DNA from: an uncultured Gammaproteobacteria bacterium
GTDB lineage: Bacteria; Pseudomonadota; Gammaproteobacteria; QNFN01
Assembly (NCBI GenBank): GCA_964195335.1
Contig: CAXMPC010000068.1
Coordinates: 1-59,907 of the forward strand
Reading direction: 5' to 3'
Length of the DNA: 59,907 bases
Shown: positions 6,426 to 56,366 of the stretch, piece by piece
How the letters are laid out: each line of letters starts with the position of its first letter
Numbering within the stretch: the first letter of the stretch is position 1
Notes under the pieces: model-generated
Told to the model about the DNA's origin: nothing
Seen by the model: the letters and a program-made list of their open reading frames with translations, nothing else
The model's database searches: none
Translations under genes and position numbers: made by a program

Positions 6426-6493
6426 CGCAGCGATCCCTCGGTCGTTATTATCTGAAGATAATCCAGTAAAACAGTACGGCCACTAGTGTAGCG

Positions 6494-6499
6494 TATAAT
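6494..6499 (+). promoter_or_regulatory. Candidate -10 hexamer (TATAAT) for the def operon
   Basis: Exact TATAAT in the AT-rich divergent spacer, 57 nt upstream of the def ATG. No convincing -35. Confidence 0.3.
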
Positions 6500-6555
6500 T
6501 CCGTACCGGACTGGCAAATGCTAGTTCAATCCGAAAGATACCACCGAAACCTCTG

Positions 6556-7059: not shown

Positions 7060-7087
7060 GCACCGACCCAGAGACGCCCGCCTGCCC

Positions 7088-8032
7088 ATGACCACGAATC
7101 CACAGCCTCTGCGGGTGGTCTTCGCCGGCACACCCGACTTCGCCGTGCCGACCCTCGAGGCGCTTATGGTTGCCGGTCATGAAGTGGTGGCGGTCTACTC
7201 GCAACCGGACCGGCCGGCCGGTCGCGGCCGCCAGCTGCGGCCGAGCCCCGTGAAGCAGGCCGCCCTTGCCAACGATATCGAGGTGCGTCAACCGTTGTCC
7301 CTACGCGACCTCGAGGCACAGCAGGCGCTGGCCGCGCTCGAACCCGACGTCATGGTGGTCGTCGCCTACGGCCTGATCCTGCCGACACCCGTGCTGGCCG
7401 CTCCCCGTCTCGGCTGCATCAACGTCCACGCCTCGCTGCTGCCGAGGTGGCGCGGCGCGGCGCCGATCCAGCGTGCCCTGCTCGCCGGCGATACCGAAAC
7501 GGGCGTCACCATCATGCAGATGGAACAGGGTCTCGATACCGGCCCGATGCTGGCCAGGGAAGCATTGCCAATCGACGCCACGGACACGGCCGCGACCCTG
7601 CACGACCGGCTCGCGAGCATTGGTGCCCGGCTGCTGGCAGCCACCCTGCCGGCACTCGATCGCGGCGAGTTGGTCGCCGAGATCCAGGATCCGGAACTCA
7701 CCACCTACGCCGAAAAACTGACCAAGGTTGAGGCACGCCTCGACTGGCAGTCCTCGGCAACGGCCCTCGATCGCCAGGTACGTGCGCTTGATCCCTGGCC
7801 GGTGGCCGAGGCCCACCTCGACGACAAGCCGCTGCGCATCTGGCAGGCCACACCGCTGCCTGGCCATGACGGGCCACCTGGACGGATCGTCCAAGCCGGC
7901 CCTGAAGGCATCGATGTCGCTTGTGGCGAAGGACTGCTGCGACTGCTGCGGTTGCAACTCCCCGGCAAACGCCCGGTCAGCGCGGGCGACTTCGCCAACG
8001 GCCGCGCGGCCCTCGGCCTGATCCTGGACTGA
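7088..8032 (+). CDS. fmt: Methionyl-tRNA formyltransferase
   Basis: ORF 6800-8032. Start moved to ATG 7088 (MTTNPQPLRVVFAGTPDFAVP). Contains the HASLLPRWRGAAPIQ motif. Confidence 0.95.
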   Translation: MTTNPQPLRVVFAGTPDFAVPTLEALMVAGHEVVAVYSQPDRPAGRGRQLRPSPVKQAALANDIEVRQPLSLRDLEAQQALAALEPDVMVVVAYGLILPTPVLAAPRLGCINVHASLLPRWRGAAPIQRALLAGDTETGVTIMQMEQGLDTGPMLAREALPIDATDTAATLHDRLASIGARLLAATLPALDRGELVAEIQDPELTTYAEKLTKVEARLDWQSSATALDRQVRALDPWPVAEAHLDDKPLRIWQATPLPGHDGPPGRIVQAGPEGIDVACGEGLLRLLRLQLPGKRPVSAGDFANGRAALGLILD

Positions 8033-8039
8033 GACCACT

Positions 8040-9338
8040 ATGCAGGTCCGAGCCGCGGCCGCGCGCGTACTGGCCCGGGTGATCCGCCACGGCGCCTCGC
8101 TCGACAGCGCCCTCCCCGAAATACTGCAGAAGGTCGCAGCCGAAGACCGTGCCCTGGTCAGCGAACTCAGTTACGGCACGCTGCGTTGGCAGCCACGCCT
8201 GGCGGCGCTTGCCACGAAGTTGCTACATCGTCCGCCGCGGGCCAAGGACAGTGACATCGCTGCGCTGCTCCTGCTGGGCCTCTACCAGCTCCAGCACACA
8301 CGCATCCCGGCCCATGCCGCCGTGGCCGAGACCGTCGCCGGCGCCGGCGCCCTGGGCAAGCGCTGGGCGGCCGCCATGATCAACGCTTCACTGCGACGCT
8401 ACCTGCGCGAGCGTGAAACCCTCGATGCGGCGGTCGACACGGACCCCGCCTGCGCCCTGGCCCACCCCCCTTGGCTAATCGATCGGTTACAGGAGGCCTG
8501 GCCTGACGCCTGGGCCGCAGTCGCCACAGCCAACAACGCCCGTGCGCCGATGGCCCTGCGTGTCAACCTCGTCCAGGGCACGCGCTCCGACTACCTGGCA
8601 CGCCTGACCGCGAACGGCCACCAGGCCGCGCCGATCGCCCACACGAAGACCGGGCTGACGCTGACCAAGCCATGTGACGTCACCGATCTGCCGGGTTTCG
8701 CCACCGGTGCCGTATCGGTCCAGGACGGTGCCGCGCAGCTCGCCGCCCCGCTGCTGGCGCCACCGCCAGGCGGGCGGGTGCTCGACGCCTGCGCCGCCCC
8801 CGGCGGCAAGACGGCGCACCTTGGAGAGTGGCAGCCGCAACTCGGCACCCTGCTGGCGCTCGACCACGCCGAAGCGCGACTCGCGCGACTGCGCGACAAC
8901 CTGGCGCGTACGGGCGTCGAGGCTACGGTGATGGCGGCCGATGCCGGCGACCCGAGCGACTGGTGGAATGGTGAGACGTTCGACGCCGTGCTGCTCGATG
9001 CCCCGTGCTCCGGCAGTGGCGTCATCCGGCGTCACCCCGACATCAAGCTGTTGCGCCGCGCCAGCGATTTGCCGCAACTGGCCGCAAATCAGGCGCGCAT
9101 GCTCTCGGCGCTGTGGCCACTGGTCGCACCCGGTGGGCGCCTGCTGTATGCTACATGCTCGGTGCTTCCGGAAGAGAATGACTTGCAGATCAGCAACTTC
9201 CTGGCGGCACACGCGGATGCACAAGAGGACGAAATCGCGGCCGACTGGGGTCATGCCTGCCGCCATGGCCGGCAGATTCTGCCGGGAGAGGACACCATGG
9301 ACGGCTTCTACTACGCGCGCCTGGTCCGCCGGGCGTGA
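8040..9338 (+). CDS. rsmB: 16S rRNA (cytosine967-C5)-methyltransferase
   Basis: 432 aa with a NusB-like N-terminus and a SAM methyltransferase domain (LDACAAPGGKT, DAPCSGSGV, YATCS). Confidence 0.9.
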   Translation: MQVRAAAARVLARVIRHGASLDSALPEILQKVAAEDRALVSELSYGTLRWQPRLAALATKLLHRPPRAKDSDIAALLLLGLYQLQHTRIPAHAAVAETVAGAGALGKRWAAAMINASLRRYLRERETLDAAVDTDPACALAHPPWLIDRLQEAWPDAWAAVATANNARAPMALRVNLVQGTRSDYLARLTANGHQAAPIAHTKTGLTLTKPCDVTDLPGFATGAVSVQDGAAQLAAPLLAPPPGGRVLDACAAPGGKTAHLGEWQPQLGTLLALDHAEARLARLRDNLARTGVEATVMAADAGDPSDWWNGETFDAVLLDAPCSGSGVIRRHPDIKLLRRASDLPQLAANQARMLSALWPLVAPGGRLLYATCSVLPEENDLQISNFLAAHADAQEDEIAADWGHACRHGRQILPGEDTMDGFYYARLVRRA

Positions 9339-9375
9339 ACGGACCGCGCGCCTTGCGACCATCGGCAAGACTGCC

Positions 9376-9987
9376 ATGACCGACAGGAGGCCAGGCCGTT
9401 CCCGTAGACACGCCGGAAAGCTGGCGTGGGCGGTGCTGCTGGTTGTCTCCCTGTTGGCGCCCTTACCCATAATGGGGTTGGCGGCGGACGGCGATAAGGC
9501 TCGTTTCACCGTACTCGAGGCCAGCACCCGGCTGGTCAGTGAGGTCTACCTGCTCGATGCCCGTATTGCCTTCGACTTCAGTCCCGAGGCGATAGAAGCA
9601 CTCGACAACGGCGTCCCGCTGACAGTCGAGCTGCAGATCGAGGTGCTGGAGACAAGCGACTTGCTCTGGGACGGCACCGTCGCCACCCTGAGCCAGCGCG
9701 ACAGCATCGAGTACCGTGCCCTCGCCGACCTGTACCTGGTCACCAACCTCAACACCGGCGAATTGAGCAGCCATACCAACCTCGGGGCCGCCCTCGCGGT
9801 GCTCGGCCAGGTAGTGAATTTTCCCATGCTCGACCGGCGGTTGCTGCGCGTCGGCTCCAGTTACAGCGCGCGCCTGCGCGCCCGCCTCGACGTCGAATCA
9901 CTGCCCTTGCCCCTGCGGCCGATGGCCTACCTGAGCAGCCGCTGGGGTCTGACCAGCGATTGGCACGAATGGCCACTCACCCCCTGA
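9376..9987 (+). CDS. DUF4390 domain protein
   Basis: Start at ATG 9376 inside ORF 8941-9987. Signal peptide followed by FTVLEASTRLVSEVYLLDARIAFDFS. Conserved position between rsmB and the NtrY-like kinase. Confidence 0.7.
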   Translation: MTDRRPGRSRRHAGKLAWAVLLVVSLLAPLPIMGLAADGDKARFTVLEASTRLVSEVYLLDARIAFDFSPEAIEALDNGVPLTVELQIEVLETSDLLWDGTVATLSQRDSIEYRALADLYLVTNLNTGELSSHTNLGAALAVLGQVVNFPMLDRRLLRVGSSYSARLRARLDVESLPLPLRPMAYLSSRWGLTSDWHEWPLTP

Positions 9988-41581: not shown

Positions 41582-42508
41582 ATGCGCCGTACCGCCTACC
41601 TGACCCACGCCGACTGCCACCGCCACGCCATGTTCGATGGCCACCCGGAGGCGCCGTCACGCCTTGGTGCGATCGAGGACCGGCTGATCGCCAGCGGCCT
41701 GCTCGACCTGCTGCGCTACCACGAAGCGATCCCGGCCACGCGCGACCAACTGGCCCGGGTCCACAGCGAGGCCCACCTCGACCGTCTCGAGGCACTGGCG
41801 CCGACCGACGACGAGCTGGCCGAGGTCGATCCCGACACCTGGATGAATGCAGCTACCCTCGACGCCGCCCATCGTGCCGCCGGGGCGGTGGTACGCGCCG
41901 TCGACCTGGTGCTCGCAGGCGAAGCCGACAACGCCTTCTGCAATGTCCGTCCGCCAGGTCACCACGCCGAACGCCACCAGGCGATGGGCTTCTGCTTCTA
42001 CAACAACATCGCCGTTGGTGCCGCCCACGCGCTGGCCGCCCACGGCCTGAAGCGCGTGGCCATTGCCGACTTCGACGTCCATCATGGCAACGGCACCGAG
42101 GTGATCTTCGCCGACACCAGCCAGGTACTGGTCTGCTCGACCTACCAGCACCCGTTCTACCCCTACACCGCCCCGCTCGAACGGGAGACACTGATCCACT
42201 GTCCACTGCCTGCGGGTACCGGCGGCATGGGCTTCCGCGCCGCGGTTGAAGAGCATTGGCTGCCGGCCATCGACGCCTTCGCCCCCGAGCTGATTCTGGT
42301 GTCGGCCGGGTTTGACGCCCATCTCGAGGATGACATGGGCGGCATGCAGCTTGTGGAGTCGGACTACGCCTGGGTCACCAGCGAACTGGTCGAACTGGCG
42401 GCGCGCCACGCCAATGGGCGCCTGGTTTCGGCGCTCGAGGGGGGCTACGCCCTGTCGGCACTCGGTCGCAGCGCCGCGGTGCACGTGCGGGCGATGTTGG
42501 GTATCTAG
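41582..42508 (+). CDS. Histone deacetylase family (Zn-dependent) deacetylase
   Basis: 308 aa with PPGHHAE, DFDVHHGNGT, SAGFDAH and EGGY motifs. Confidence 0.9.
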   Translation: MRRTAYLTHADCHRHAMFDGHPEAPSRLGAIEDRLIASGLLDLLRYHEAIPATRDQLARVHSEAHLDRLEALAPTDDELAEVDPDTWMNAATLDAAHRAAGAVVRAVDLVLAGEADNAFCNVRPPGHHAERHQAMGFCFYNNIAVGAAHALAAHGLKRVAIADFDVHHGNGTEVIFADTSQVLVCSTYQHPFYPYTAPLERETLIHCPLPAGTGGMGFRAAVEEHWLPAIDAFAPELILVSAGFDAHLEDDMGGMQLVESDYAWVTSELVELAARHANGRLVSALEGGYALSALGRSAAVHVRAMLGI

Positions 42509-42541
42509 CCGGAAACGCCCGACACGGGATGGCACCGGTTC

Positions 42542-42783
42542 TGCAAGAGGGCCGTCCACGGCCCGATGGGTAGCGGTTACGGCACAGGCCGAATCGCGGC
42601 GTGTACCCGTAAAGGGCATAAAGACGCCGCTCCTACAAGGAGGGCGCCTGTAGGAGGGCCGCCCACAGCCCGATGGGCGGTGATTACGGCACAGGACGGA
42701 TCGCGGCGTGTACCCGTAGCTGCTCCTACGAGGATGGCGCCTGTAGGAGGGCCGCCCACGGCCCGATGGACGGTGGCTGCGCC
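42542..42783. repeat. Structured intergenic tandem repeat (two full copies of about 70 bp plus one partial copy), REP-like
   Basis: Copies at 42542-42611, 42649-42718 and 42742-42783, about 85 percent identical by eye. Each begins TG(C/T)A(A/G)GAGGGCCG(T/C)CCAC(G/A)GCCCGATGG and contains hairpins (GGGCCG/CGGCCC). Linkers form CTCCTAC...GTAGGAG inverted repeats. Confidence 0.85.
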
Positions 42784-42796
42784 TCTCCCCGTCTCG

Positions 42797-45493
42797 TCAG
42801 AGCTTCAACCGCACGACGGTGACATTCTCTTCGCTGTCGTGCTCGGCACTGAAGCCGAGCGCCCGTGCCAGACTGATCATCGGTCGGTTGTCCGGCAGGA
42901 TCTGGCCGATGATCTCGGGCGTACCCCGCGCCCTGCAGTAGTCGATCATCTTCTGCATCAGCTTGCGACCGAGTCCCTGGCCCTTGAGATCCGAGCGGGC
43001 AATGATCGCGTATTCGGCCACGGTGTTGTCCGGGTCGGTCAGGGTACGGACCACGCCGAGCGTTTCCTGTTCGCCGCGCTCGCCCTTGGCCGTGGCAATG
43101 AACGCCATCTCACGGTCGTAGTCGATCTGGGTCAGCCGCGCCATCTCCCGGTGGCTCATGCGGCTGCTGACGACGCCGAAGAACCGGTAATAGATGTCCT
43201 GTGGCGACAACTTGTCGAGGAAGGTGTAGTGCGCCGTTTCGTCCTCGGGGCGGATCGGTCGCAACAGCACGTCACGGCCGTCCTTGAGCTTGAAATGCTC
43301 CTCGAGATCCTCCGGATAAGGACGGATCGCCAGCCGCTCCGGGCCGCTGCACTCGGCCGGCGCCACGCTGATCCGGGCATCGAGCGCCAGCACCCCCTCG
43401 GGTCCGGCAAACAGCGGATTGATGTCGAGCTCGACGATTTCCGGCAGGTCGATCATCAACTGGGCGACCTTGATCAGCGTCAGGCAGATGGCGTCGAGGT
43501 CGGCCGCCGGCGTGTCGCGGTAGCCTTCGAGCAGCTTGTAGATCCGGGTGCGAGTGATCAGCTCACGCGCCAGGCTCATGTTCAGCGGCGGCAGGGCCAC
43601 GGCACGGTCGGCGATCACCTCCACCGCCGTCCCGCCCTGGCCGAACAGCAACACCGGGCCGAAGATCGGATCGGTGGTGGCGCCGATGATCAGCTCCTGC
43701 GCCCCCTTCATGCGCGCCATCTTCTGCACCGTGAAGCCCGGCGTCGGCACGTCAGGAAAGGCCTCGGCGACACGACCGAGAATGCCCTTGGCGGCGCTGC
43801 TGACGGCATCGGCACTGTCGAGATCGAGCACCACGCCGCCGACATCGGACTTGTGGCTGATCTGGTCGGAGAGCACCTTCAGCGCCACCGGGAATCCCAT
43901 GCGCTGCGCCGTCGCCGCGGCACTGGCCGGATCGGCGACCACGTGAGTTTCGACCACCGGGATGGTGTACGAAGAGAACACCGCTTTCGCCTCGGCCTCG
44001 CCGAGCATGCTCCGCCCGGCCGCCAGCGCACTTTCGATCACCAACCGCGCCGTCGCCGTGGCCGGCTTGAACTCCTCGGGCGCCGTCGGCGGCGTCTGGG
44101 TCAGCAGTTCCTGGTTGCGACGGTAGTTGACGATATGCATGAACGCCCCCACCGCACCTTCCGGGGTGCGGTAGGTGGGGATGTCGGCCGCAGAGAAGAG
44201 ATCACGCGCCTCGACGACGGCGTTCTCACCCATCCAGTTGGTCAGCACGTACTTGCCGTGCTTGCCCTTCATCTTTTCCAGGGTGTCGAGCACCGCCTGC
44301 GCCCCCACGGTGCTCGAGGCGATCGCCGTCGGCGCATGCATCACCAGTACCGAGTCGACCTCCTTGGCCAACAAAAGGATCTCCAGCGCGGCGGCGTAGC
44401 GGCTGCCTGGGGCGTCACCGATGATGTCGATCGGGTTGCTACGTGACCAGTTAGACGGCAGCACGGCGTCAAGCTTGGCAATAGTGGCCTCATCGAGTTC
44501 GGCCAGCGTACCGCCAATATCGATCAGCCGGTCGACCGCCATGACGCCTGGACCACCGCCGTTGGTCATGATCGCCAACCGCTCACCCTGCTGGCGTCTC
44601 AGCGAGGGCCGCGCCAGGGTCTCGACCGCGGCGAACAGTTCATGGAAGGTGTACACGCGCAGCATGCCGGCACGACTGATCGCCGCATCGTAGACATTGT
44701 CGGCCCCGGCCAGGGCCCCGGTGTGTGACGCCGCCGCCTTCGCCCCCTCGGCGACGCGGCCGGCCTTGATCACCACCACCGGCTTGATCCGGGCCGCGGC
44801 CCGGGCCGCCGACATGAAGGTACGGCGCTCGTGGATCGACTCGATGTAGAGCAGGATTGCATGCGTTCCGGGATCGCCGGCAAGGTAGTCGAGGGCGTCG
44901 CCGAAATCGACGTCGAGGGCGTCACCGAGCGAAACGAAGTGCGAGAAGCCGATGTTCTTCGACGCGGCCCAGTCGAGCACCGAGGTCGCCAGCGCCCCGG
45001 ACTGTGAGATGAAGCCGATCTGGCCAGGCGCGGCCCGTACGTGCGAAAAACTGGCGTTGAGGCCGGAACCCGGCACCAGCAGGCCGAGGCAGTTGGGCCC
45101 GATCAGGCGCATGCCGTGCTCGCGGGCGCGCTCACGCAGCCGTTGTTGCAGCGACACGCCCTCCTCGTCCTCGTGGGCACCGAGGCCGGCGGTGATGACG
45201 ATGGCGGCGCGCGTGCCGCGTTGACCGAGCTCGTCGATGAGACCCGGAACCGTCGGTGCCGGGGTGCAGATCACCGCCAGGTCCGGGGTCAGCGGCAGGC
45301 TGGCGACGTCAGGATAGGCGAGGACCCCGGCGATGGAGTCGTGTTTCGGATTGACCGGCATGATCGGGCCGGAGAAGCCGGCCTCGAGCAGGTTGCGCAT
45401 CAGCACCGTACCGACCCGCTGCGGGCGGTTCGAGGCGCCGATGACGGCAATCGACTTGGGGCGGAAGAGGTATTCGAGGTTCCTGACGCTCAT
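42797..45493 (-). CDS. Pat-like protein acetyltransferase (ADP-forming acyl-CoA synthetase-like domains plus C-terminal GNAT)
   Basis: ATG 45493 (MSVRNLEYLFRPKSIAVIGAS). CoA-binding and ATP-grasp domains. C-terminal GNAT motif QGLGRKLM. Confidence 0.9.
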   Translation of the reverse strand: MSVRNLEYLFRPKSIAVIGASNRPQRVGTVLMRNLLEAGFSGPIMPVNPKHDSIAGVLAYPDVASLPLTPDLAVICTPAPTVPGLIDELGQRGTRAAIVITAGLGAHEDEEGVSLQQRLRERAREHGMRLIGPNCLGLLVPGSGLNASFSHVRAAPGQIGFISQSGALATSVLDWAASKNIGFSHFVSLGDALDVDFGDALDYLAGDPGTHAILLYIESIHERRTFMSAARAAARIKPVVVIKAGRVAEGAKAAASHTGALAGADNVYDAAISRAGMLRVYTFHELFAAVETLARPSLRRQQGERLAIMTNGGGPGVMAVDRLIDIGGTLAELDEATIAKLDAVLPSNWSRSNPIDIIGDAPGSRYAAALEILLLAKEVDSVLVMHAPTAIASSTVGAQAVLDTLEKMKGKHGKYVLTNWMGENAVVEARDLFSAADIPTYRTPEGAVGAFMHIVNYRRNQELLTQTPPTAPEEFKPATATARLVIESALAAGRSMLGEAEAKAVFSSYTIPVVETHVVADPASAAATAQRMGFPVALKVLSDQISHKSDVGGVVLDLDSADAVSSAAKGILGRVAEAFPDVPTPGFTVQKMARMKGAQELIIGATTDPIFGPVLLFGQGGTAVEVIADRAVALPPLNMSLARELITRTRIYKLLEGYRDTPAADLDAICLTLIKVAQLMIDLPEIVELDINPLFAGPEGVLALDARISVAPAECSGPERLAIRPYPEDLEEHFKLKDGRDVLLRPIRPEDETAHYTFLDKLSPQDIYYRFFGVVSSRMSHREMARLTQIDYDREMAFIATAKGERGEQETLGVVRTLTDPDNTVAEYAIIARSDLKGQGLGRKLMQKMIDYCRARGTPEIIGQILPDNRPMISLARALGFSAEHDSEENVTVVRLKL

Positions 45494-45574
45494 GACTTGC
45501 TTGTCCCAATGAATTTGACGCCCAAAGACATTAGGGGGCGTCGTGTTTTTGCACTGCAACATTATAGCCGAGGG

Positions 45575-46525
45575 ATGGTGAAAGTTGGGCTACAGTTAAG
45601 GTGCATGGATGCTGATGGAAGGATCGCAGGACGTTCGCCGGTGGCCGGCAGGGGTCCGTTCGACCTCGCCGACGAGGACGCCTACCGCCGTTGGCGTGAA
45701 CTGAAGCTGGCCACGGCCCCGCAGCGACTCGACGAACTGACGGTCGAGATCCGCGATCTCGAACACCCTACAGTCGCCGAACGTGGCGCCCTGCTGGAAC
45801 GGATCAGGCGGGCCAACATGGCCCTCTACCACTGCGGCCTGACCGAGAACCGTGGCTCTGTGCTGCGTTTCGCCGAGCATTTCGGCCTGCTCCACCTCGA
45901 CCGCAACCCGGCCACCGAAGACGACGGCCTGAGCGCCATCCAGGTCCAGGCCGAGCGCCAATCTAGCGAGTTCATTCCCTACACCGACCGGGCGATCCGC
46001 TGGCACACCGACGGCTACTACAACCCGCCCGAGCGACAGATCCGCGCCTTCATCCTGCACTGCGTGCGGCCGGCGTCCGAGGGTGGTGTCAACCGCCTAC
46101 TCGACCCCGAGTTGCTCTACCTGCGCCTGCGTGATGAGGATCCAGACCTGGTCGCCGCGCTGATGCACCCGGCGGCGATGATGATCCCGGCCCATATCGA
46201 GGAGGGCGTCGAGCTACGACCGGAACAGAGCGGCCCGGTTTTTTCAGTTTTGACCGGGGGCCCGCGCCCGGCGCTGCACCTGCGCTACACCGCTCGCACC
46301 CGCAGCATCCGCTGGCGCGACGGCCAGGCCACACGTACAGCGGTCGCGCGCCTGGAGGCGTTGCTGGCCGATCCGCTATCCGGTGCCTTCGAACACCGCC
46401 TGGGCCCCGGCGAGGGCATTCTCTGCAACAACGTCTTGCACAGTCGCAGTGCCTTCCATAACGGTACATCGGATGGACGGCTGCTCTACCGCGCCCGTTT
46501 CCACGACCGCATAACAGGCACCTGA
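45575..46525 (+). CDS. TauD/TfdA family Fe(II)/2-oxoglutarate dioxygenase
   Basis: In-frame part of ORF 45041-46525 beyond the pat start. HxD facial triad in RWHTDGYY and a distal His in NVLHSRSAF. Start uncertain (ATG 45575 or 45605). Confidence 0.7.
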   Translation: MVKVGLQLRCMDADGRIAGRSPVAGRGPFDLADEDAYRRWRELKLATAPQRLDELTVEIRDLEHPTVAERGALLERIRRANMALYHCGLTENRGSVLRFAEHFGLLHLDRNPATEDDGLSAIQVQAERQSSEFIPYTDRAIRWHTDGYYNPPERQIRAFILHCVRPASEGGVNRLLDPELLYLRLRDEDPDLVAALMHPAAMMIPAHIEEGVELRPEQSGPVFSVLTGGPRPALHLRYTARTRSIRWRDGQATRTAVARLEALLADPLSGAFEHRLGPGEGILCNNVLHSRSAFHNGTSDGRLLYRARFHDRITGT

Positions 46526-46529
46526 AACG

Positions 46530-46560
46530 ACGAAGGCCGGGACTGGGTCCCGGCCTTCGT
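46530..46560. terminator. Bidirectional intrinsic terminator hairpin
   Basis: Perfect 14-bp stem ACGAAGGCCGGGAC / GTCCCGGCCTTCGT with a 3-nt loop. Lies 4 nt after the TauD-family stop and 23 nt after the dsrA-like stop, with short T runs on both sides. Confidence 0.75.
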
Positions 46561-46583
46561 TAGGCGTTCGTTTGATCAGGCGC

Positions 46584-47819
46584 TCAGCCAGCCTTTTTGC
46601 GCGCGAACCACTTCTCCGCCTCCTCGTCCCAGCCGTCGGTACGAACGTAGGGATTGGTGCGCGGGTGGTTGATCATGTTCGGGTCGATCTCGACGCCGAC
46701 CCCTTCGAGGAAGTTGGCCAGGCCGATGCGCTCGATCATTTCGCCGGTACGCTCGTGCTCGAGGGCGTTTTCGGCAAAAAAGTCGATGACGCGCCCACCG
46801 AGGTCGTTCAGCGCCTCGTAGTCCTCTTCGGTGTCGAGCGGCATGAACGGCACGATGACCGTACCCAGCAGGTCGCCGATCTTCAGCGTGCGCTTGCCGC
46901 CGATGAGCACCGTCGCACCCTTTTCGTCACCCGGAGCGAGCGCCTTGGTCATGACGTTGAGGCAGTGCATGCAGCGCACGCAGCTCGGATTGTCGACCTC
47001 GAGCGTGTCGTCGTCGTTGAGGCTCAGGGCGTTGGTTGGGCAGCGGCTGATGACGTTGTCGATGACGTGCTTGCGCCCCTTGCGTTCGACGAACGCCTTG
47101 ACCTCGGCCTGATCGACCTTCATGTCATCCTTCCAGGTGCCGATGACGGCGAAGTCGGCGCGCTGCACCGAGTTGACGCAGTCGTTGGCGCAGCCGGAAA
47201 ACTTGAACTTGAACTTGTACGGCAGCGACGGGCGGTGCATGTCGTCGAGGTAGGTATTGATGATCTGCCGATGCGCCTTGGGCTCGTCGTAGCAGCTCAT
47301 CTCGCAGCGGGCGTGGCCGACGCAGGAGGCCGCAGTGCGCAGCGCGGGGCCGGCACCGCCGAGGTCGAAACCGAGTTCGTTAATCTCGTCGAACGCCTTC
47401 TGCACATTCTCGGTAGTGCAGCCCTGAAACATGATGTCGCCGGACTGGCCGTGGAAGGCGATCAGGCCCGAGCCGTGCTTCTCCCAGATGTCGCACATCT
47501 TGCGCAGCGTCCCGGAATCGTAGTGGAACCCGGGCGGGGGCATGACGCGAAGGGTGTGAAACTCCGACGACTCGGGAAACTTGTCGGCCACCTCGGAGAA
47601 GCGCGGGATGATTCCACCGCCGTAACCGAAGACGCCGACGGTACCGCCCTTCCAGTAGCCCAGGCGCGTCTCGTAGGAGTGCTCGAGTTGCCCGAGGAGG
47701 TCGACCATCATCGGATTGTCGTCTTCTGCCAGCCGCTTGAGGCCGGTCACGAAGCTCGGCCAGGGGCCGGTCTCCAGCTCGTCGAGCATCGGGGTCGGGT
47801 GCATCTCTTTGGTCGCCAT
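46584..47819 (-). CDS. dsrA: Dissimilatory-type sulfite reductase alpha subunit (reverse DsrA-like), stand-alone
   Basis: ATG 47819 with GAGG 8 nt upstream (MATKEMHPTPMLDELETGPWPSF). Contains GQLEHSYETRLGYWKGGTVGVFGYGGG and PSLPYKFKFKFSGC. Siroheme-[4Fe-4S] ligands CVGHARC plus CANDC. Ferredoxin insert CP...CVRCMHC. Confidence 0.85.
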   Translation of the reverse strand: MATKEMHPTPMLDELETGPWPSFVTGLKRLAEDDNPMMVDLLGQLEHSYETRLGYWKGGTVGVFGYGGGIIPRFSEVADKFPESSEFHTLRVMPPPGFHYDSGTLRKMCDIWEKHGSGLIAFHGQSGDIMFQGCTTENVQKAFDEINELGFDLGGAGPALRTAASCVGHARCEMSCYDEPKAHRQIINTYLDDMHRPSLPYKFKFKFSGCANDCVNSVQRADFAVIGTWKDDMKVDQAEVKAFVERKGRKHVIDNVISRCPTNALSLNDDDTLEVDNPSCVRCMHCLNVMTKALAPGDEKGATVLIGGKRTLKIGDLLGTVIVPFMPLDTEEDYEALNDLGGRVIDFFAENALEHERTGEMIERIGLANFLEGVGVEIDPNMINHPRTNPYVRTDGWDEEAEKWFARKKAG

Positions 47820-47839
47820 CGGCATAACCTCGGTCGCGT

Positions 47840-47868
47840 CGTATAAAGGGCATTCTGACAATCGTCAA
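47840..47868 (-). promoter_or_regulatory. Candidate sigma70 promoter of the dsrA-like gene
   Basis: Minus strand TTGACG (47868-47863), a 17-nt spacer, then TATACG (47845-40). The implied 5' UTR is very short, so this is weak. Confidence 0.3.
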
Positions 47869-47928
47869 GATAGATGGGACAGGACGCCCGGTAAAGTCCG
47901 ACCAAATAGGTACGGTATTATTCAATGG

Positions 47929-48360
47929 CTACCCCCAATTGGGTAGACGGGTCGCGGACGAGCGCCGCCAGAGGCGCGGCGAAGTCGTCACCCCCTCCCC
48001 TCCGAGCAGGATCGCGATGGCCTCGCGCCGGGGTCGCAACACCTGTTCCAGCTTGTCACGCAACAACGAACCGCTGGCCGTACTGCGCGCGAACACCGGG
48101 TAGCAGAGCGCCTCCTGGCAACCGGCCAGCATCTGCAGGGCATCCACCTCGTCCACCAGCTCCGGGACCGCCGCAAGCAGCATCGCGGCCACCGGGTCGG
48201 AACCGGCCCCAGGATCACGCTCGGTGACGCCGCCCTAATCACCGGCGTGTGCTGGCCGGCACTCGCGCTGGTGAACTCGCGACCGAGGATCTGGATGGCC
48301 TGGGCCGGCCGCATAGGGTTGCTGCCGTCGAACCATGCCCCGGGTTAACAAGATCCGTGC
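47929..48360 (-). pseudogene. Decayed, frameshifted coding remnant of unknown family
   Basis: Two consecutive segments with coding-like GC3 bias in different frames: PGAWFDGSNPMRPAQAIQILGREFTSASAGQHTPVI..., then after about 48195 AAMLLAAVPELVDEVDALQMLAGCQEALCYPVFARS.... No intact ORF spans them, and there is a stop directly upstream. Confidence 0.35.
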
Positions 48361-50880: not shown

Positions 50881-52206
50881 TCAGTCGCTCTCCAGCGGAG
50901 CGGCAAGTCGTTGCGAAACGCGGCGATAGAGCAGGCTGGCCGCCCAGAGGTTTCGCGCCAGCAACAGGAACGAAACGCCAAGCACCAGGGCAAACGGGTA
51001 GATCAGCGGATCGGGCCAGAGCACGGCCAACGGCAACAGGACCACCGCACCGGCGTGGGCGCGGAACTGGCGCCGGCTGACGGCATCCGGCAGCACCTGT
51101 TTCATGTGCGGGATCTTGAAACCGGTGCCCATCCGGCCGCTGTGCAGCAGGCCGTTCTGCAGGTGGAACCAGACCAGGAACGGCACGATCTTGTAGAGCA
51201 TGCCGTTGATCACCGACAGCGCGAAACCGACGACCAGGCCGGCGCCGAGCAGCAGTACCGTGCGCGGGTCATTGATCCACTCCGGGGCCGCGCGTGTGAC
51301 GACCCAGAACAGCAGGGTCACCAGCAGGCAGCCCATGCCCAACCGCCAGAAACTGAAGGTGACATCCGGCAGCCGCCGCTTGCGCTGCCGTTGCAGGTCG
51401 AGCGTGACCAGGGCGAACGCAGCATTGCCGAGCACCAGCACGACCGCAGCCAGGACGCCGGCCTGGGCCGCCGCCGGCCACGCCAGCGCCAACGTCCACA
51501 GGACGAGGGCCGCGAACACCAGTCGGTTGAGGTGACGTGTCAGCCATTCGGGGTATTCCGGTGTCATCTGGAACATCGGCACCACCTGGAAGGCGACCCC
51601 GCTCACCAGGATGCCGATCCAGCCGAGCAGGGCCCAACCGGCGTGCAGGTCGGTCACGACGCCACGCTGCAGGGTGACACCGCTCCAGCCGTGACCGGCG
51701 AGCAGCCAGAAGCCGAGACTCGCCGCCACTGCCAGTGCCATTATCGCCAGGGTCATGCCGCGAACGGCGGCGTGGCGGCGTGGAGCACGCGCCAGACTGT
51801 GGGCCGCCGCCGCGACCAGCGCCGCGACCGCGCCGGCGAGCAGCAGCGCGGCCGCCTGCAGCAGGCTCGGGGCCGGCAGGGTGAAACCGAGCGCCAGCGT
51901 GGCCGTACCGGCAACCAGCAGCGTGTGCACCACCGTCGCGACGATCACCGGACGCGCCACAGGGGCACCGGCGACCACCGGCAGCATCTGCAACATGGCG
52001 CCAAACATCACCATCGTCAGTACACCGAGGGTGAACAGATGGGTCAGGGCGAGCATGCCCGGCGTCCAGCGCGACTGCAGCAGGTCGGGCCCGGACCAGA
52101 GGAGCAGCGCCACCGCGGCAATTCCGAACAGTGGCGCGGTCATGAAAAAACGGAACGGGGCATTGACCGGCGGCGCCTGTTCCAGCGCCAGGCCCGGGTA
52201 ACTCAC
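50881..52206 (-). CDS. Polytopic membrane protein, NnrS-like by context and weak motif resemblance
   Basis: 441 aa and about 12 TM helices. GTG start 1 nt after the DUF2249 stop. PFRFFMTAPLFG and LTHLF..G...MFG loosely recall NnrS GFRPFFL and H.HE..FG. Confidence 0.45.
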   Translation of the reverse strand: MSYPGLALEQAPPVNAPFRFFMTAPLFGIAAVALLLWSGPDLLQSRWTPGMLALTHLFTLGVLTMVMFGAMLQMLPVVAGAPVARPVIVATVVHTLLVAGTATLALGFTLPAPSLLQAAALLLAGAVAALVAAAAHSLARAPRRHAAVRGMTLAIMALAVAASLGFWLLAGHGWSGVTLQRGVVTDLHAGWALLGWIGILVSGVAFQVVPMFQMTPEYPEWLTRHLNRLVFAALVLWTLALAWPAAAQAGVLAAVVLVLGNAAFALVTLDLQRQRKRRLPDVTFSFWRLGMGCLLVTLLFWVVTRAAPEWINDPRTVLLLGAGLVVGFALSVINGMLYKIVPFLVWFHLQNGLLHSGRMGTGFKIPHMKQVLPDAVSRRQFRAHAGAVVLLPLAVLWPDPLIYPFALVLGVSFLLLARNLWAASLLYRRVSQRLAAPLESD

Positions 52207-52207
52207 C

Positions 52208-52468
52208 TCAGGCGTCCGCGGCAGCGGCCGTGGCGACCGGGTCGTCGCGACGCCAGATCAGCACCTCGTAGGGTGTCGTCGCACCGGTCTGGCAGCGCCA
52301 GGCGCATCCGAGTTGCTCGAGCATCGGGTAGAGCGGAAACGGTTCGCGCTGGTGGAGCACGCGCAGGTACTCTCCCGGGGCCAGCTCGCTGGCGGCCTCC
52401 AGCGTGCGCTCGAGCGGCTCGCAGGGCTCGAGCCCGGAGACATCGAGGCGCCGCTCACGTGCGGACAT
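52208..52468 (-). CDS. DUF2249 domain protein
   Basis: 86 aa. RLDVSGLEPCEPLERTLEAASELAPGEYLRVLHQREPFPLYPMLEQLG fits the DUF2249 pattern. Confidence 0.65.
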   Translation of the reverse strand: MSARERRLDVSGLEPCEPLERTLEAASELAPGEYLRVLHQREPFPLYPMLEQLGCAWRCQTGATTPYEVLIWRRDDPVATAAAADA

Positions 52469-52471
52469 CAG

Positions 52472-52909
52472 TCAGGCCGCGGCCCCGAGCTGCCGGGCAA
52501 AGGCGGTGGCGCCTTCACCAAGAGCCTGGTCGGTCATCGGGTAGACGATCTCCTCCTCCTTGAGGTTGTGCTGTTGCATCAGGATGTTCAGGGTCTCGGC
52601 AACACCGAGCGCCTCGTCGCCATCCCGTGCGGTAATGGCCGCACGCAACTCCTCGAACAGGCCACGCATCTGATCGTGCTCCATGCGCATGATCCGGGTC
52701 GGACCCATGGCCATGCCCGTCAGGCGCTCGAACTCCGGAAACACCTGTGTCTCCTCCAGTTCGAAATGGTGGGTCATGCCTTCGAGGTACGTCTCCAGGC
52801 CGGCCGTAGCCGTATCCCAGTCGCCCTCACCGGCCGCCGCCTCGAGCGCGGCGAACAGGTCGTCGCAGCGGCGGTGGTCATGGGACATGTAGGTTGTCAC
52901 ATCACTCAT
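52472..52909 (-). CDS. Hemerythrin domain protein
   Basis: ATG 52909 (MSDVTTYMSHDHRRCDDLF). His/Glu-rich four-helix pattern (HHFELEE, MEHDQM, QQHNLKEEE). Confidence 0.8.
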   Translation of the reverse strand: MSDVTTYMSHDHRRCDDLFAALEAAAGEGDWDTATAGLETYLEGMTHHFELEETQVFPEFERLTGMAMGPTRIMRMEHDQMRGLFEELRAAITARDGDEALGVAETLNILMQQHNLKEEEIVYPMTDQALGEGATAFARQLGAAA

Positions 52910-52967
52910 CTCTAAACTCTCCGTATCGTGTCGACTGGCACTATCCCCCGGCACGCTGGCATCGGCA

Positions 52968-52981
52968 TTGATGAACATCAA
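52968..52981. promoter_or_regulatory. Perfect FNR/Dnr-type box TTGAT-N4-ATCAA
   Basis: TTGATGAACATCAA. On the minus strand it is followed by exactly 22 nt, then GATAGT (52945-52940). This places the box at about -41.5 of a promoter reading into the hemerythrin gene. Confidence 0.75.
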
Positions 52982-53012
52982 GAGCCGCTTGCCGCTCCGG
53001 CGGACGAGCGCT

Positions 53013-53708
53013 ATGGTGCCCGGCAACATGACCCACGACGACCTCACCACCACCCTGGGCAAAATCCCGCTGTTCGCGAGTCTCGACGACGACGAACTGG
53101 GGGTGATCTCGCACGCGACCCATCACCATCGCCTGCTCCGTGGTGAAATGCTGTTCCAGAAAGGCGACCCGGCGCTCGGCTTCTACTACCTCGTCGAGGG
53201 GCAGGTGAAGCTGGCCCTGCTGGCGCCCGACGGCCAGGAGAAGGTGATCCAGCTGATCGAGCCCGGCATGACCTTCGGTGAAGCGGTGATGTTCATCGAA
53301 CGCCCGTTTCCCGCCTACGCCGAAGCGCTGCGCGCCAGCCAGTTGCTGTTCATTCCGCGCACGCCGCTGATCGAGGCGCTCAACGGCAACCCGGGCTTCG
53401 CCCTCAAGCTTCTCGCCGGGCTCAGCACCAGGCTGCACGGCATGGTGAACGAAATCGAGGCGCTGTCGACCCGCAACGCGACCCAACGGGTCATCGGTTT
53501 CCTGGTCGCCGACCGCGGCCACGACGACCCGGACACCCTGGCCCTGCCAGCAAGCAAGGCCCTGATCGCCTCGCAACTGAACCTGACACCCGAGACCTTC
53601 TCGCGTGTCCTGCACGACCTGCAGCAACGGCAGCTGATCGAGGTCGACGGGCGGACCATCCGCCTGCTCGACCGCGACACCCTACTCGGCCAGGAAGAGC
53701 CGGGCTGA
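53013..53708 (+). CDS. Crp/Fnr family regulator, Dnr/NnrR-like (no N-terminal Cys cluster)
   Basis: ATG 53013 (alternative 53028). cNMP-binding fold and an HTH with the E--SR recognition motif (TPETFSRVL). No FNR-type cysteines. Confidence 0.85.
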   Translation: MVPGNMTHDDLTTTLGKIPLFASLDDDELGVISHATHHHRLLRGEMLFQKGDPALGFYYLVEGQVKLALLAPDGQEKVIQLIEPGMTFGEAVMFIERPFPAYAEALRASQLLFIPRTPLIEALNGNPGFALKLLAGLSTRLHGMVNEIEALSTRNATQRVIGFLVADRGHDDPDTLALPASKALIASQLNLTPETFSRVLHDLQQRQLIEVDGRTIRLLDRDTLLGQEEPG

Positions 53709-55055: not shown

Positions 55056-55283
55056 GACGCAACGGTTCCCTTGTTTGGTCAGGAGGGGCGTGACCGCCCG
55101 GTCCTATTGTGACCCATCTTCGCCACGATGCCAGTCTGACGGGCAGTTGATGCGCGTCCAAGATCAATTGATCTGGATCAGGTTCCGCGCGCTTCCTTGC
55201 CACACCAGTTGACGGCCAGGGGGGCGACTGGTTGAATAACCTACCAGTTAAGTTGGTTTTTGTCCGCTACCGGAGTCTGCACC

Positions 55284-55736
55284 ATGCGACTTTCGACCAA
55301 GGGGCGCTACGCCGTCACCGCCATGTTCGACCTGGCCCTGCACGAGCAGGACGGGCCGGTCCCACTTACCGAGATCTCCACCTGCCAGACGATCTCGCTC
55401 TCCTACCTCGAGCAGCTCTTTGCCAAGCTACGCAAGCATGAGCTGGTGGTCGGCGTCCGCGGCGTCGGCGGCGGCTACCGCCTCGCCCGACCCGCGACCG
55501 AGATCTCCATCGCCGACATCCTGCGAGCCGTCGACGAGAAGGTTGATGTCTCCCGCGCCGCGCAAAAAGGCGACCCGGCCCAGGCTCTGTGGATCGAATT
55601 CAGCGAGCAGCTCTACTCCTATCTCGACCACCGCACCCTGGCCGACTGCATCAGCAGCCCATACGCCCTGCGCATCTCCGCCCGCCAGGACGGCGAACAC
55701 GCTCGCGGCATCCCCACCCGTCAGAACGCCGCCTGA
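55284..55736 (+). CDS. Rrf2 family regulator, IscR-like but lacking the cluster-ligand cysteines
   Basis: ATG 55284 with GGAG 8 nt upstream. MRLSTKGRYAVTAMFDLAL...ISLSYLEQLFAKLRK winged HTH. The ligand loop reads VDVSRAAQKGDPAQALW, with no Cys. Confidence 0.85.
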   Translation: MRLSTKGRYAVTAMFDLALHEQDGPVPLTEISTCQTISLSYLEQLFAKLRKHELVVGVRGVGGGYRLARPATEISIADILRAVDEKVDVSRAAQKGDPAQALWIEFSEQLYSYLDHRTLADCISSPYALRISARQDGEHARGIPTRQNAA

Positions 55737-55896: not shown

Positions 55897-56199
55897 TCAG
55901 ACGCAGCCGGTCGGTTTCGGCAGGCCGCCGTACTTGGTGATCGGCTTCATCGGTCCGGTCATCCACAGGTCGAACAGGGCCCGGGTGTCTACACCGAGGT
56001 ACCTGGCAAACTTGCGCACCGGCGGGACCGAGGCATTACCGTCGTAGTATTCGCGCGCCTTCAGTACCTGTTCCCAGCGGTCGCCATCGAGCTCGATGCC
56101 ATCGCCCTCGGCCATGGCGTGGGCCACGACCTCGCTCCAGTCGTTCATATCCTCGAGGTAACCGTCGCCGTCGCGTGCCGGCAGTTGGATGGCGGTCAT
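55897..56199 (-). CDS. tusE: TusE/DsrC family sulfur relay protein (single-Cys, TusE type)
   Basis: ATG 56199 with AGGAG upstream. C-terminus GGLPKPTGCV. Thr occupies the position of the second DsrC cysteine. Confidence 0.85.
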   Translation of the reverse strand: MTAIQLPARDGDGYLEDMNDWSEVVAHAMAEGDGIELDGDRWEQVLKAREYYDGNASVPPVRKFARYLGVDTRALFDLWMTGPMKPITKYGGLPKPTGCV

Positions 56200-56366
56200 A
56201 TGGGTGGCTCCTGTTCTCATGGTTGCACTGGTCAATGGCGCCACAGTAGATAATATCAGACTATTTTAGTCAACTATCCACGATGGGGGAGGCTGGGTCC
56301 ACCACCCGGGTGGCTTGTGGTATACAGGCCGCTGCCCCGCACCCGGTTTTATCAAGGAGTAAGCAA

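What the first reader, a model, noticed from the sequence alone, without database searches (positions are those of the whole stretch)
46584..47868. Stand-alone, apparently intact reverse-type DsrA gene with no dsrB or other dsr genes
The 411-aa product carries long stretches that I recognise from sulfur-oxidiser DsrA: TPMLDELETGPWPSF, GQLEHSYETRLGYWKGGTVGVFGYGGG, SGDIMFQG and PSLPYKFKFKFSGC. It keeps every cluster-ligand set: C-x5-C (CVGHARC) plus C-x3-C (CANDC) for siroheme-[4Fe-4S], and CP...C-x2-C-x2-C (CVRCMHC) for the ferredoxin insert.

Characterised DsrA always works with its paralog DsrB, which is encoded immediately downstream, usually followed by dsrEFHCMK. Here the gene is monocistronic. 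A strong terminator follows 23 nt after the stop, then a convergent unrelated gene. Upstream lie 0.5 kb of decayed ORF and a possible promoter of its own. Every other ORF in the window is accounted for by another family. So there is no dsrB within 12 kb on one side or 46 kb on the other.

Three explanations are possible: a relic of a disrupted dsr operon that is still intact, a paralog serving a distant dsrB, or a DsrA acting alone or as a homomer in a new role.
Basis: partly seen in the sequence, partly recalled or inferred. Interest (0 to 1): 0.75.

Follow-up and report, generated by a model that had tools for sequence, protein, structure and literature searches.

The report
Unlinked extra copy of dsrA
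This is a real, intact sulfur-oxidiser dsrA gene kept under selection away from dsrB, but related genomes hold a full dsr operon elsewhere, so it is most likely a spare alpha subunit, as already reported in Thiobacillus denitrificans and some phages.

Summary
Window 46584-47819 (-) encodes an intact 411-aa oxidative-type DsrA (TIGR02064, 577 bits against a cutoff of 393). The 59.9-kb contig contains no dsrB, dsrEFH or two-Cys dsrC.

It is not a relic. The same dsrB-less arrangement and synteny occur in 21 contigs of the lineage. Pairwise dN/dS is 0.07-0.25. The protein keeps all 151 near-invariant rDsrA positions and evolves no faster than operon-linked sister copies. A ~110-nt upstream block, with a palindrome found in all 21 contigs, survived two independent deletions of the genes upstream.

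It probably does not act alone. Two NCBI MAGs of this lineage (GCA_009937385.1 and GCA_033722135.1) carry the solo locus on one contig and dsrB-EFHCMKLJOPN on another. Operons with that DsrB type start with their own dsrA, which is 79-81% identical to this one and forms its sister clade.

dsrB in this particular genome was not seen. Unlinked dsrA copies are already reported in Thiobacillus denitrificans and as phage auxiliary genes. I also found them in Thiohalomonadaceae MAGs and in one alphaproteobacterial MAG. This is a new member of a known but unexplained kind, of moderate interest.

The parts
46584..47819 (-). dsrA2: an intact 411-aa oxidative-type DsrA (sulfite reductase alpha subunit) that is not linked to dsrB
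   Evidence: TIGR02064 scores 576.8 bits against a cutoff of 392.85. Pfam finds NIR_SIR and NIR_SIR_ferr. The match to 3mm5_A is 1e-113. dN/dS against orthologs is 0.07-0.13. None of the 151 near-invariant rDsrA columns deviates.
47820..47928 (-). Conserved non-coding region upstream of dsrA2. It holds a GAGG Shine-Dalgarno at 47828-47831. A possible -35/-10 pair (TTTACC, 17 nt, TATCTT) is my reading of invariant alignment columns.
   Evidence: Five orthologs align with long invariant runs, although the coding dS is 0.26-0.62. The block was retained after two different upstream deletions. There is no Rfam match at E <= 1 in this block, and the consensus sigma-70 scan made no call. The promoter assignment is inferred.
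47855..47868 (-). Palindrome TTGACGATTGTCAG (TTGAC-N4-GTCAG), 36-49 nt before the start codon. It is a candidate operator or Crp/Fnr-type site.
   Evidence: The pattern TTGASRWWTGTCAG is present in the window and in 20 of 20 other loci of the clade. It is absent from 93 other loci, including all canonical dsrA upstream regions. Its function is inferred only. The window shows no enrichment of the motif.
47929..48192 (-). Remnant (last 87 codons) of a 372-391-aa gene of unknown family that directly precedes dsrA2 in relatives
   Evidence: It aligns to the 3' end of L095:8759-9877 and L005:5240-6415. No Pfam or NCBIfam family matches the full-length relatives.
48238..48314 (-). Remnant (first 77 nt) of a MoxR-like AAA gene. 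It marks the far edge of a ~3.1-kb deletion that removed the AAA-DUF2201-X cassette.
   Evidence: blastn of the window against L095 shows that L095 6553-9625 is missing from the window. L004 has a different deletion, 5989-9685.
46531..46559 (.). G+C-rich hairpin (13-bp stem, 3-nt loop) between the convergent dsrA2 and TauD-like genes. It is a probable two-way terminator with a weak U tail.
   Evidence: The fold energy is -36.7 kcal/mol, z = -5.3, and 0 of 200 shuffles fold as well. The consensus terminator scan did not list it.
45641..46525 (+). TauD/GBBH-like Fe/2-oxoglutarate dioxygenase gene, convergent with dsrA2. The start coordinate is approximate.
   Evidence: Pfam TauD matches at 7e-19. 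There are weak NCBIfam hits to TmpA, TMLD and GBBH. Homologs lie next to dsrA in 50 further loci, nearly all just upstream and divergent from canonical dsrA.

Best explanation
The gene is dsrA2, a selectively maintained and separately transcribed paralog of the alpha subunit of reverse (oxidative) dissimilatory sulfite reductase.

The organism's lineage also carries a full dsr operon elsewhere: dsrA1-dsrB-dsrEFH-dsrC-dsrMKLJOP-dsrN. DsrA2 most likely assembles with the operon-encoded DsrB into an ordinary alpha-beta sulfite reductase. It could do this either as an extra supply of the alpha subunit or as an alternative isoform expressed from its own control region.

Shown here:
- the protein's identity and intactness;
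- the absence of dsrB on this contig;
- conservation of the solo state and of the upstream block;
- purifying selection;
- the solo locus and a dsrB operon together in two related MAGs.

Inferred:
- that this particular genome has the operon;
- that DsrA2 physically pairs with DsrB;
- that the palindrome is a regulatory site.
For: (1) It is a bona fide DsrA.

(2) The solo state and synteny (CMD-Rieske, DUF2269, DUF3237, [AAA-DUF2201-X], dsrA..., TauD, Pat, HDAC) are conserved in L001, L002, L004, L005, L095-L102 and L103-L110. No dsrB lies within the sequence held on either side.

(3) dN/dS is 0.07-0.25 within the clade, comparable to 0.07-0.13 for canonical pairs.

(4) Zero of 148 and zero of 151 near-invariant rDsrA columns are changed. 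There are no clade-specific replacements beyond those shared with the canonical sister clade. It evolves no faster than the operon-linked sister: 25 against 43 unique changes, p = 0.03.

(5) Assembly GCA_009937385.1 has the solo locus on JAACFL010000073.1 and dsrB-EFHCMKLJOPN on JAACFL010000079.1. Assembly GCA_033722135.1 has them on JAWVZO010000262.1 and JAWVZO010000037.1. Those DsrB proteins are 98-99% identical to the DsrB of L086, whose operon begins with its own dsrA, 79% identical to this one.

(6) The solo clade is monophyletic (100% bootstrap) and sister to those operon-linked copies (72%).

(7) There are precedents. An alphaproteobacterial MAG has both a canonical (L017) and a solo (L020) copy, and the similarity is confined to the coding sequence. 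T. denitrificans has two unlinked dsrA copies besides dsrAB (PMC2702494).
Against: The window is a single 59.9-kb MAG contig. The rest of its genome could not be read, so dsrB in this exact organism is not shown.

The two supporting MAGs are bins, and binning can mix strains. In both, the operon contig starts inside dsrB, so their own operon-linked dsrA1 is not seen directly.

There are no expression, proteomic or interaction data. Sequence conservation cannot prove that DsrA2 binds DsrB.
Confidence: 0.75

Rival explanations
1. Split operon. This dsrA is the organism's only dsrA. The dsr operon elsewhere starts at dsrB, so the gene is simply the relocated alpha subunit and not an extra copy.
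For: In both MAGs with co-occurrence, the operon contig begins inside dsrB, so no operon-linked dsrA is seen. The solo copy is the more conservative of the two paralog clades.
Against: Contigs carrying the same DsrB type show a full dsrA directly upstream: 97-100% identical DsrB in L003, L086 and L087, and a 357-aa partial dsrA in L088. L111 is 92% identical in DNA to L086 across the operon, yet the solo DsrA is only 79% identical to L086 DsrA. That pattern fits paralogs and not a relocated ortholog.
Confidence: 0.1
2. A function independent of DsrB. DsrA2 would act as a monomer or homodimer, or with a non-DsrB partner, in a new role. One possibility is sulfite handling linked to the neighbouring TauD-like dioxygenase or the MoxR/VWA cassette.
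For: The gene is transcriptionally separate with its own conserved upstream region. Relatives have an AAA-DUF2201-X cassette just upstream on the same strand. All ligands for its own siroheme-[4Fe-4S] and ferredoxin clusters are kept. Phages also carry dsrA without dsrB.
Against: There is no sequence signature of a changed partner: zero deviations at near-invariant rDsrA columns and no clade-specific replacements. A dsrB operon is present in related MAGs. The upstream cassette was lost twice without loss of dsrA. In solved DsrAB structures each active site is built from both subunits (established knowledge, not tested here).
Confidence: 0.08
3. A non-functional relic of a disrupted dsr operon that has not yet decayed.
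For: The flanks show deletions and insertions: loss of the AAA-DUF2201-X cassette in the window and L004, an ISL3 transposase next to dsrA in L005, and a toxin-antitoxin pair in L002. A TauD-like gene that normally neighbours canonical dsrA lies adjacent.
Against: The gene is intact in all 21 contigs of the clade, apart from copies cut by a contig end, with dS up to 0.6 and dN/dS of 0.07-0.25. The upstream block is conserved. The rate of change is no higher than in operon copies.
Confidence: 0.04
4. A prophage-borne or mobile auxiliary dsrA, like the rdsrA of SUP05 phages.
For: Phage Lau218 encodes a DsrA that is 61% identical and has no dsrB. Two IMG/VR contigs encode relatives at 67-68% identity.
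Against: Pfam hits across the window are cellular genes (topA, rsmB, trkAH, hemB, ppk, recG, bio genes, aa3 oxidase) and none is a phage family. The chromosomal synteny is stable across the lineage. No phage-specific (PHROGs) scan was run.
Confidence: 0.02

Closest known systems
Unlinked dsrA copies of Thiobacillus denitrificans ATCC 25259 (Beller et al. 2006, as reported in Loy et al. 2009, PMC2702494)
   Same: They are oxidative-type dsrA paralogs, 78-83% identical to the operon copy, not followed by dsrB, in a genome that also has a clustered dsrAB operon. Here the solo copy is 79-81% identical to the operon-linked sister copies, and related MAGs carry the operon.
   Different: The lineage differs: uncultured Gammaproteobacteria here, Betaproteobacteria there. 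Here there is one solo copy at a conserved locus with its own conserved upstream block. I could not read the T. denitrificans loci, so synteny and common origin were not compared. The function is untested in both.
Phage auxiliary rdsrA (SUP05 podophage Lau218; Kieft et al. 2021, PMC8190135)
   Same: dsrA is carried without dsrB, and the product is presumed to work with host DsrB. Kieft et al. note that DsrB has never been found as a phage auxiliary gene.
   Different: The window gene is chromosomal, sits in stable cellular synteny, and is only 61% identical to the phage protein.
Canonical rDsrA of the dsrABEFHCMKLJOPN(RS) operon (Allochromatium vinosum type)
   Same: The family, length, cluster ligands and near-invariant residues are the same. 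It is 70-81% identical to operon-linked DsrA of Gamma- and Alphaproteobacteria.
   Different: There is no adjacent dsrB or dsr accessory gene. It is a separate transcription unit whose upstream palindrome is absent from canonical dsrA upstream regions.
Other solo dsrA loci found here (Thiohalomonadaceae MAGs L041, L043, L050, L061; alphaproteobacterial MAG L020)
   Same: All are intact dsrA with no dsrB within the sequence held downstream (about 4.7-10 kb), under strong purifying selection (dN/dS 0.02-0.08). In L041 and L043 the same Pat acetyltransferase and deacetylase pair lies next to the gene, as in the window.
   Different: They sit in different places on the DsrA tree: a single clade of all solo copies has 0% bootstrap support. 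They lack the window clade's upstream palindrome. Whether those MAGs also have dsrB is known only for the MAG of L020, through its canonical locus L017.

Membership tests
DsrA (dissimilatory sulfite reductase alpha subunit, TIGR02064) | Scores above the curated equivalog cutoff, and better than the DsrB model | tested here: met
   dsrA scores 576.8 bits against a cutoff of 392.85. dsrB scores 141.3 against a cutoff of 341.5.
DsrA (dissimilatory sulfite reductase alpha subunit, TIGR02064) | Siroheme-[4Fe-4S] ligands (C-x5-C ... C-x3-C) and the ferredoxin-domain cluster ligands (CP ... C-x2-C-x2-C) | tested here: met
   CVGHARC, CANDC, RCP and CVRCMHC are present in the translation and align to 3mm5_A and 2v4j_A.
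DsrA (dissimilatory sulfite reductase alpha subunit, TIGR02064) | Basic substrate-binding residues of the alpha subunit (A. fulgidus Arg98, Arg170, Lys211, Lys213; residue roles recalled from the literature) | tested here: met
   FHTLR, ALRTAAS and PYKFKFK align to the corresponding A. fulgidus residues. The roles of these residues were not re-verified here.
DsrA (dissimilatory sulfite reductase alpha subunit, TIGR02064) | Encoded immediately upstream of its partner dsrB | tested here: not met
   No DsrB-like sequence occurs anywhere in the 59.9-kb contig. The same holds within the sequence held for the 20 related contigs. This is a feature of gene order, not of the protein.
DsrA (dissimilatory sulfite reductase alpha subunit, TIGR02064) | Forms an alpha2-beta2 complex with DsrB | not testable with these tools
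   Only indirect evidence is available: all near-invariant rDsrA columns are kept, and dsrB operons are present in two related MAGs.
Oxidative (reverse) type rDsr of sulfur oxidisers | Groups with DsrA from operons that carry dsrEFH and dsrL and lack dsrD | tested here: met
   The closest operon-linked relatives (L003, L086, L089, L091, L111, L113) have dsrEFH, dsrC, dsrMK and a DsrL-like 638-646-aa Fe-S flavoprotein. No gene was called between dsrB and dsrE.
Unlinked dsrA paralog coexisting with a dsr operon (T. denitrificans type) | The same genome also has dsrAB plus accessory dsr genes | tested here: inconclusive
   This was shown for two related MAGs, with DsrA 93% and 96% identical to the window's. 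It was not shown for the window's own genome, which could not be accessed.
Phage auxiliary metabolic dsrA | Located in a phage or prophage genome | tested here: not met
   The neighbours are cellular genes in stable synteny, and Pfam found no phage families. No PHROGs scan was run.
Pseudogene or relic | Frame disruption or relaxed selection | tested here: not met
   The frame is intact. dN/dS is 0.07-0.25. The relative-rate test shows no acceleration.

The most novel reading that the evidence does not exclude
DsrA2 does not need DsrB. It would work as a homomer, or with a new partner, as a stand-alone siroheme enzyme with its own regulation. The repeated appearance of dsrA-only copies in bacteria and phages would then reflect that independent activity, and not a supply of alpha subunit.
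Probability: 0.08. Interest if true: 0.85.

Novelty: new member of a known kind. Interest (0 to 1): 0.4.

Why it matters
dsrA and dsrAB are widely used as marker genes for sulfur-cycling potential. An intact dsrA that is routinely found away from dsrB has two practical consequences.

- A dsrA hit on a short contig does not locate a dsr operon.
- Counts based on dsrA can overestimate the number of dsr operons in lineages with extra copies.

Biologically, dsrA-only copies recur in several places: this lineage, Thiohalomonadaceae, an alphaproteobacterial MAG, T. denitrificans and SUP05 phages. In the lineages analysed here they are under strong purifying selection. dsrB has never been reported duplicated alone. 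This asymmetry suggests the alpha subunit is the limiting, damage-prone or condition-specific part of the enzyme. That idea could be tested in T. denitrificans. It is an incremental point and not a new system.

Tried and rejected
1. Window's own record. I looked it up to find its MAG, but the record is hidden. I used accession neighbours and assembly ids of cluster members instead.

2. Genome-collection scan. It returns only the best 80 of 563 loci and depends on exact peptide patterns. The absence of a second dsrA from QNFN01 or DATCZX01 in that list is therefore not evidence.

3. Single ancient solo paralog. I considered this because the Pat/HDAC pair also neighbours the solo dsrA in L041 and L043. 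The DsrA tree gives 0% bootstrap support for one clade of all solo copies. Gene conversion could hide common ancestry, so this remains unresolved.

4. In-situ deletion of dsrB and the genes after it. In Thiohalomonadaceae the solo and canonical loci share no flanking synteny. In the window clade no trace of dsrB remains after the stop codon.

5. Rfam and sigma-70 scans of the upstream block. Neither called anything there. The one weak Rfam hit (SorX, E = 0.62) lies downstream of the gene.

6. Regulon search with the palindrome in the window. It found no enrichment: 10 matches against 5 +/- 2.9 expected.

7. Second palindrome, CTACCC-N6-GGGTAG at 47929-47946. It is the last codons and the stop of the upstream gene (LPNWG*), so coding explains its conservation.

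8. Beller et al. 2006. The paper is not held in the library. The T. denitrificans precedent therefore rests on Loy et al. 2009.

9. Structure prediction. I did not run it. A monomer model cannot discriminate between the hypotheses, and multimers cannot be submitted.
Full report
**1.
The minus-strand ORF at 46584-47861 most likely starts at the ATG at 47819. A GAGG lies 8 nt upstream, and orthologs begin MATKEMH at the same point.

NCBIfam's dsrA equivalog model scores 576.8 bits against a cutoff of 392.85. The dsrB model reaches only 141. Pfam finds the NIR_SIR and NIR_SIR_ferr domains. The best solved relative is A. fulgidus DsrA at 1e-113. Residues I recall as the alpha subunit's substrate-binding Arg/Arg/Lys/Lys align as conserved; their roles come from memory of the literature, not from a test here.

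tblastn with DsrB, DsrE, DsrF and DsrH from a canonical operon finds nothing in the window. The one DsrC-family gene (55897-56244, minus strand) has a single C-terminal Cys, so it is TusE-like.

The rest of the contig holds ordinary chromosomal genes: topA, rsmB, an NtrYX-like pair, trkAH, hemB, ppk, recG, bio genes and an aa3 cytochrome oxidase operon. The window is a whole 59,907-bp NCBI MAG contig.

**2. The solo state is a conserved feature of the lineage, not an accident of this contig.**
The closest proteins are 86-96% identical. They sit in the same neighbourhood and never have dsrB: L001, L002, L004, L005, L095-L102 and L103-L110.

The shared gene order is CMD-Rieske, DUF2269, DUF3237, [MoxR-like AAA, DUF2201, a 372-391-aa protein of no known family], dsrA. 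A variable insertion follows, and then a convergent TauD-like gene, a Pat-type acetyltransferase and a deacetylase.

The closest relative, L004, lost the cassette through a different deletion. Both deletions stop roughly 300-360 nt before the dsrA start codon.

**3. The gene is under selection, and so is its upstream region.**
Nei-Gojobori dN/dS within the clade is 0.07-0.25, with dS of 0.26-0.62. Canonical pairs give 0.07-0.13.

The window protein deviates at none of the 148 (or 151) columns that are at least 97% invariant in 72 operon-linked rDsrA sequences. The few clade-typical replacements at less conserved columns are mostly shared with the canonical sister clade. Relative-rate tests show the solo copy is not accelerated. 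If anything the operon-linked sister is faster: 25 against 43 unique changes, p = 0.03 in two of five tests.

The 109 nt between the upstream gene's stop and the dsrA start contain long invariant runs across five orthologs. They include the palindrome TTGAC-N4-GTCAG. It is present in the window and in all 20 other loci of the clade. It is absent from every canonical dsrA upstream region examined.

No Rfam family matches the block at E <= 1, and no consensus sigma-70 promoter was called. Invariant TTTACC-17-TATCTT hexamers just upstream of the palindrome are a plausible weak promoter. That reading is my inference.

Downstream, a 13-bp G+C hairpin (46531-46559) separates dsrA from the convergent gene. 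Its U tail is weak.

**4. The lineage has dsrB elsewhere.**
Searching with the DsrB of the nearest canonical operon (L003) found a 37-member DsrB cluster. The solo DsrA cluster has 35 members.

Accession numbers pointed to shared genomes: NCF10391.1 (DsrA) with NCF10459.1 (DsrB), and MDX1595212.1 with MDX1593504.1. Look-ups confirmed both pairs.

| Assembly | Solo locus | dsr operon contig |
|---|---|---|
| GCA_009937385.1 | JAACFL010000073.1 | JAACFL010000079.1 (dsrB-dsrEFH-dsrC-dsrMKLJOP-dsrN) |
| GCA_033722135.1 | JAWVZO010000262.1 | JAWVZO010000037.1 (same operon) |

Their solo DsrA proteins are 93% and 96% identical to the window's. Their DsrB proteins are 98-99% identical to L086 DsrB.

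Operons with that DsrB type begin with their own dsrA (L003, L086, L087, L088). That dsrA is 79-81% identical to the window's and forms the sister clade of the solo copies. Solo monophyly has 100% bootstrap support and the sister relation 72%.

L111 is 92% identical in DNA to L086 along the operon, yet the DsrA proteins differ by 21%. So the two dsrA types are paralogs, not orthologs. The likeliest picture is a lineage-specific duplication: dsrA1 stayed in the operon and dsrA2 sits alone.

There are caveats. These are binned MAGs. In both, the operon contig starts inside dsrB. The window's own genome could not be inspected.

**5. Mechanism.**
DsrA2 keeps every position that canonical alpha subunits keep, and a dsrB operon is present in the lineage. 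I therefore take it to be a working alpha subunit that pairs with operon-encoded DsrB. It would act as extra supply or as a separately regulated isoform (confidence 0.75).

The operon-linked sister copies carry seven changes at otherwise near-invariant columns: F131L, F143W, D144E, S175A, E179S/T, G209A and D276R. Some lie next to the cluster-binding cysteines. So the solo copy is the more conventional of the two. This hints at a division of labour, but I cannot say what it is.

The rivals are ranked as follows.
- A split operon, in which dsrA2 is the only dsrA: 0.1.
- A DsrB-independent function: 0.08. No sequence signature supports it.
- A relic: 0.04. Selection contradicts it.
- A phage or mobile auxiliary gene: 0.02. 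The context is cellular and stable.

**6. Comparison with what is known.**
Loy et al. [quoted passage not shown] They cite Beller et al. 2006, which I could not open.

SUP05 phages carry rdsrA without dsrB; Lau218 DsrA is 61% identical to this one. Kieft et al. 2021 remark that DsrB has never been seen as a phage auxiliary gene (PMC8190135).

Another is in an alphaproteobacterial MAG that also has a canonical operon (L020 and L017). There the two copies are 97% identical in DNA over the coding sequence only.

On the DsrA tree these solo copies do not form one clade: 0% bootstrap support. So dsrA-only copies have arisen, or been homogenised by gene conversion, several times.

**7. Verdict.**
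The gene is a true member of the DsrA family. It fails only the gene-order criterion (section 1). It is a new example of a phenomenon already recorded but never explained: unlinked dsrA paralogs.

The third is unsupported but not excluded.

Interest is moderate (0.4). The result is useful for interpreting dsrA marker data. It also gives a testable idea that the alpha subunit is the limiting or condition-specific part of rDsr. It is not a new kind of system.

Noticed in passing
window ~45641-46525 (+); canonical loci such as L010:8905-9678, L066:8736-9581, L089:482-1372: A TauD/GBBH-like Fe/2-oxoglutarate dioxygenase gene has homologs next to dsrA in 50 further loci. Nearly all lie just upstream and divergent from canonical dsrA in Alpha- and Gammaproteobacteria, sometimes with a DUF6967 gene. 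To my knowledge it is not part of the described dsr cluster. In the window clade it is convergent and downstream instead.
   Followed up: partly
L095:6476-9877 (also L005:4013-6415, L103-L110); remnants at window 47929-48192 and 48238-48314: In most relatives a MoxR-like AAA ATPase, a DUF2201 (VWA/metallopeptidase-like) protein and a 372-391-aa protein of no known family lie directly upstream of the solo dsrA on the same strand. The window and L004 lost this cassette by two different deletions. Each deletion spared the dsrA upstream region.
   Followed up: partly
L041:9998-15005, L043:2864-7856 compared with window 41582-47819: In two Thiohalomonadaceae MAGs the solo dsrA also lies next to a Pat-type CoA-ligase/GNAT acetyltransferase (46-47% identical) and a deacetylase (53-54% identical). 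Their DsrA proteins nevertheless belong to a different branch of the tree. This could be shared ancestry masked by gene conversion, or coincidence. It is unresolved.
   Followed up: partly
L020:3397-4660 compared with L017:10004-11267 (same MAG, CAWKJW01): A solo and an operon-linked dsrA in one alphaproteobacterial MAG are 97% identical in DNA from about codon 14 to the stop codon, and unrelated outside that span. This looks like a recent duplication or a gene-conversion tract limited to the coding sequence.
   Followed up: partly
DsrA of L003, P0005, L086 (operon-linked sister clade); window residue numbers 131, 143, 144, 175, 179, 209, 276: The operon-linked paralogs of this lineage carry seven replacements at columns that are at least 97% invariant in other rDsrA. 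Among them are S175A and E179S/T beside the C-x5-C motif and G209A before C-x3-C. The solo copy has none.
   Followed up: partly
L061:9998-13326 and L050:220-4747: In these Thiohalomonadaceae contigs the solo dsrA and the CitMHS transporter gene after it have GC3 of about 0.66-0.73. The Tad-pilus genes upstream have about 0.45. This suggests the pair arrived by horizontal transfer.
   Followed up: no
window 55897-56244 (-): A DsrC/TusE-family gene with only the terminal Cys (…KYGGLPKPTGCV), so TusE-like and not DsrC. It lies next to an Rrf2-family regulator gene (55260-55736). The same gene is present in L004.
   Followed up: yes
window 50881-53708; L095:1165-3982: A conserved group lies 3-6 kb upstream of dsrA2 across the lineage: a Crp/Fnr-family regulator (FtrB/FixK-like), a hemerythrin and, in relatives, DUF2249 and a 439-aa protein with no family. 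The regulator is a candidate binder of the TTGAC-N4-GTCAG palindrome. This was not tested.
   Followed up: no
L005:8009-9235; L002:1937-2536; L001:1736-6677: The gap between the solo dsrA and the TauD-like gene is a hot spot for insertions. It holds an ISL3 transposase in L005, a Phd/ParE toxin-antitoxin pair in L002, and an EAL response regulator plus hybrid histidine kinase in L001 and L095-L110. The window has none of these.
   Followed up: partly
L111:1-531, L113:1-748, and partial DsrB proteins P0260, P0261, P0267, P0268: Many contigs of this lineage break inside dsrB. Operons are therefore often seen without their dsrA, probably an assembly effect of conserved or repeated dsr sequence. 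This could make operons look as if they lack dsrA.
   Followed up: no
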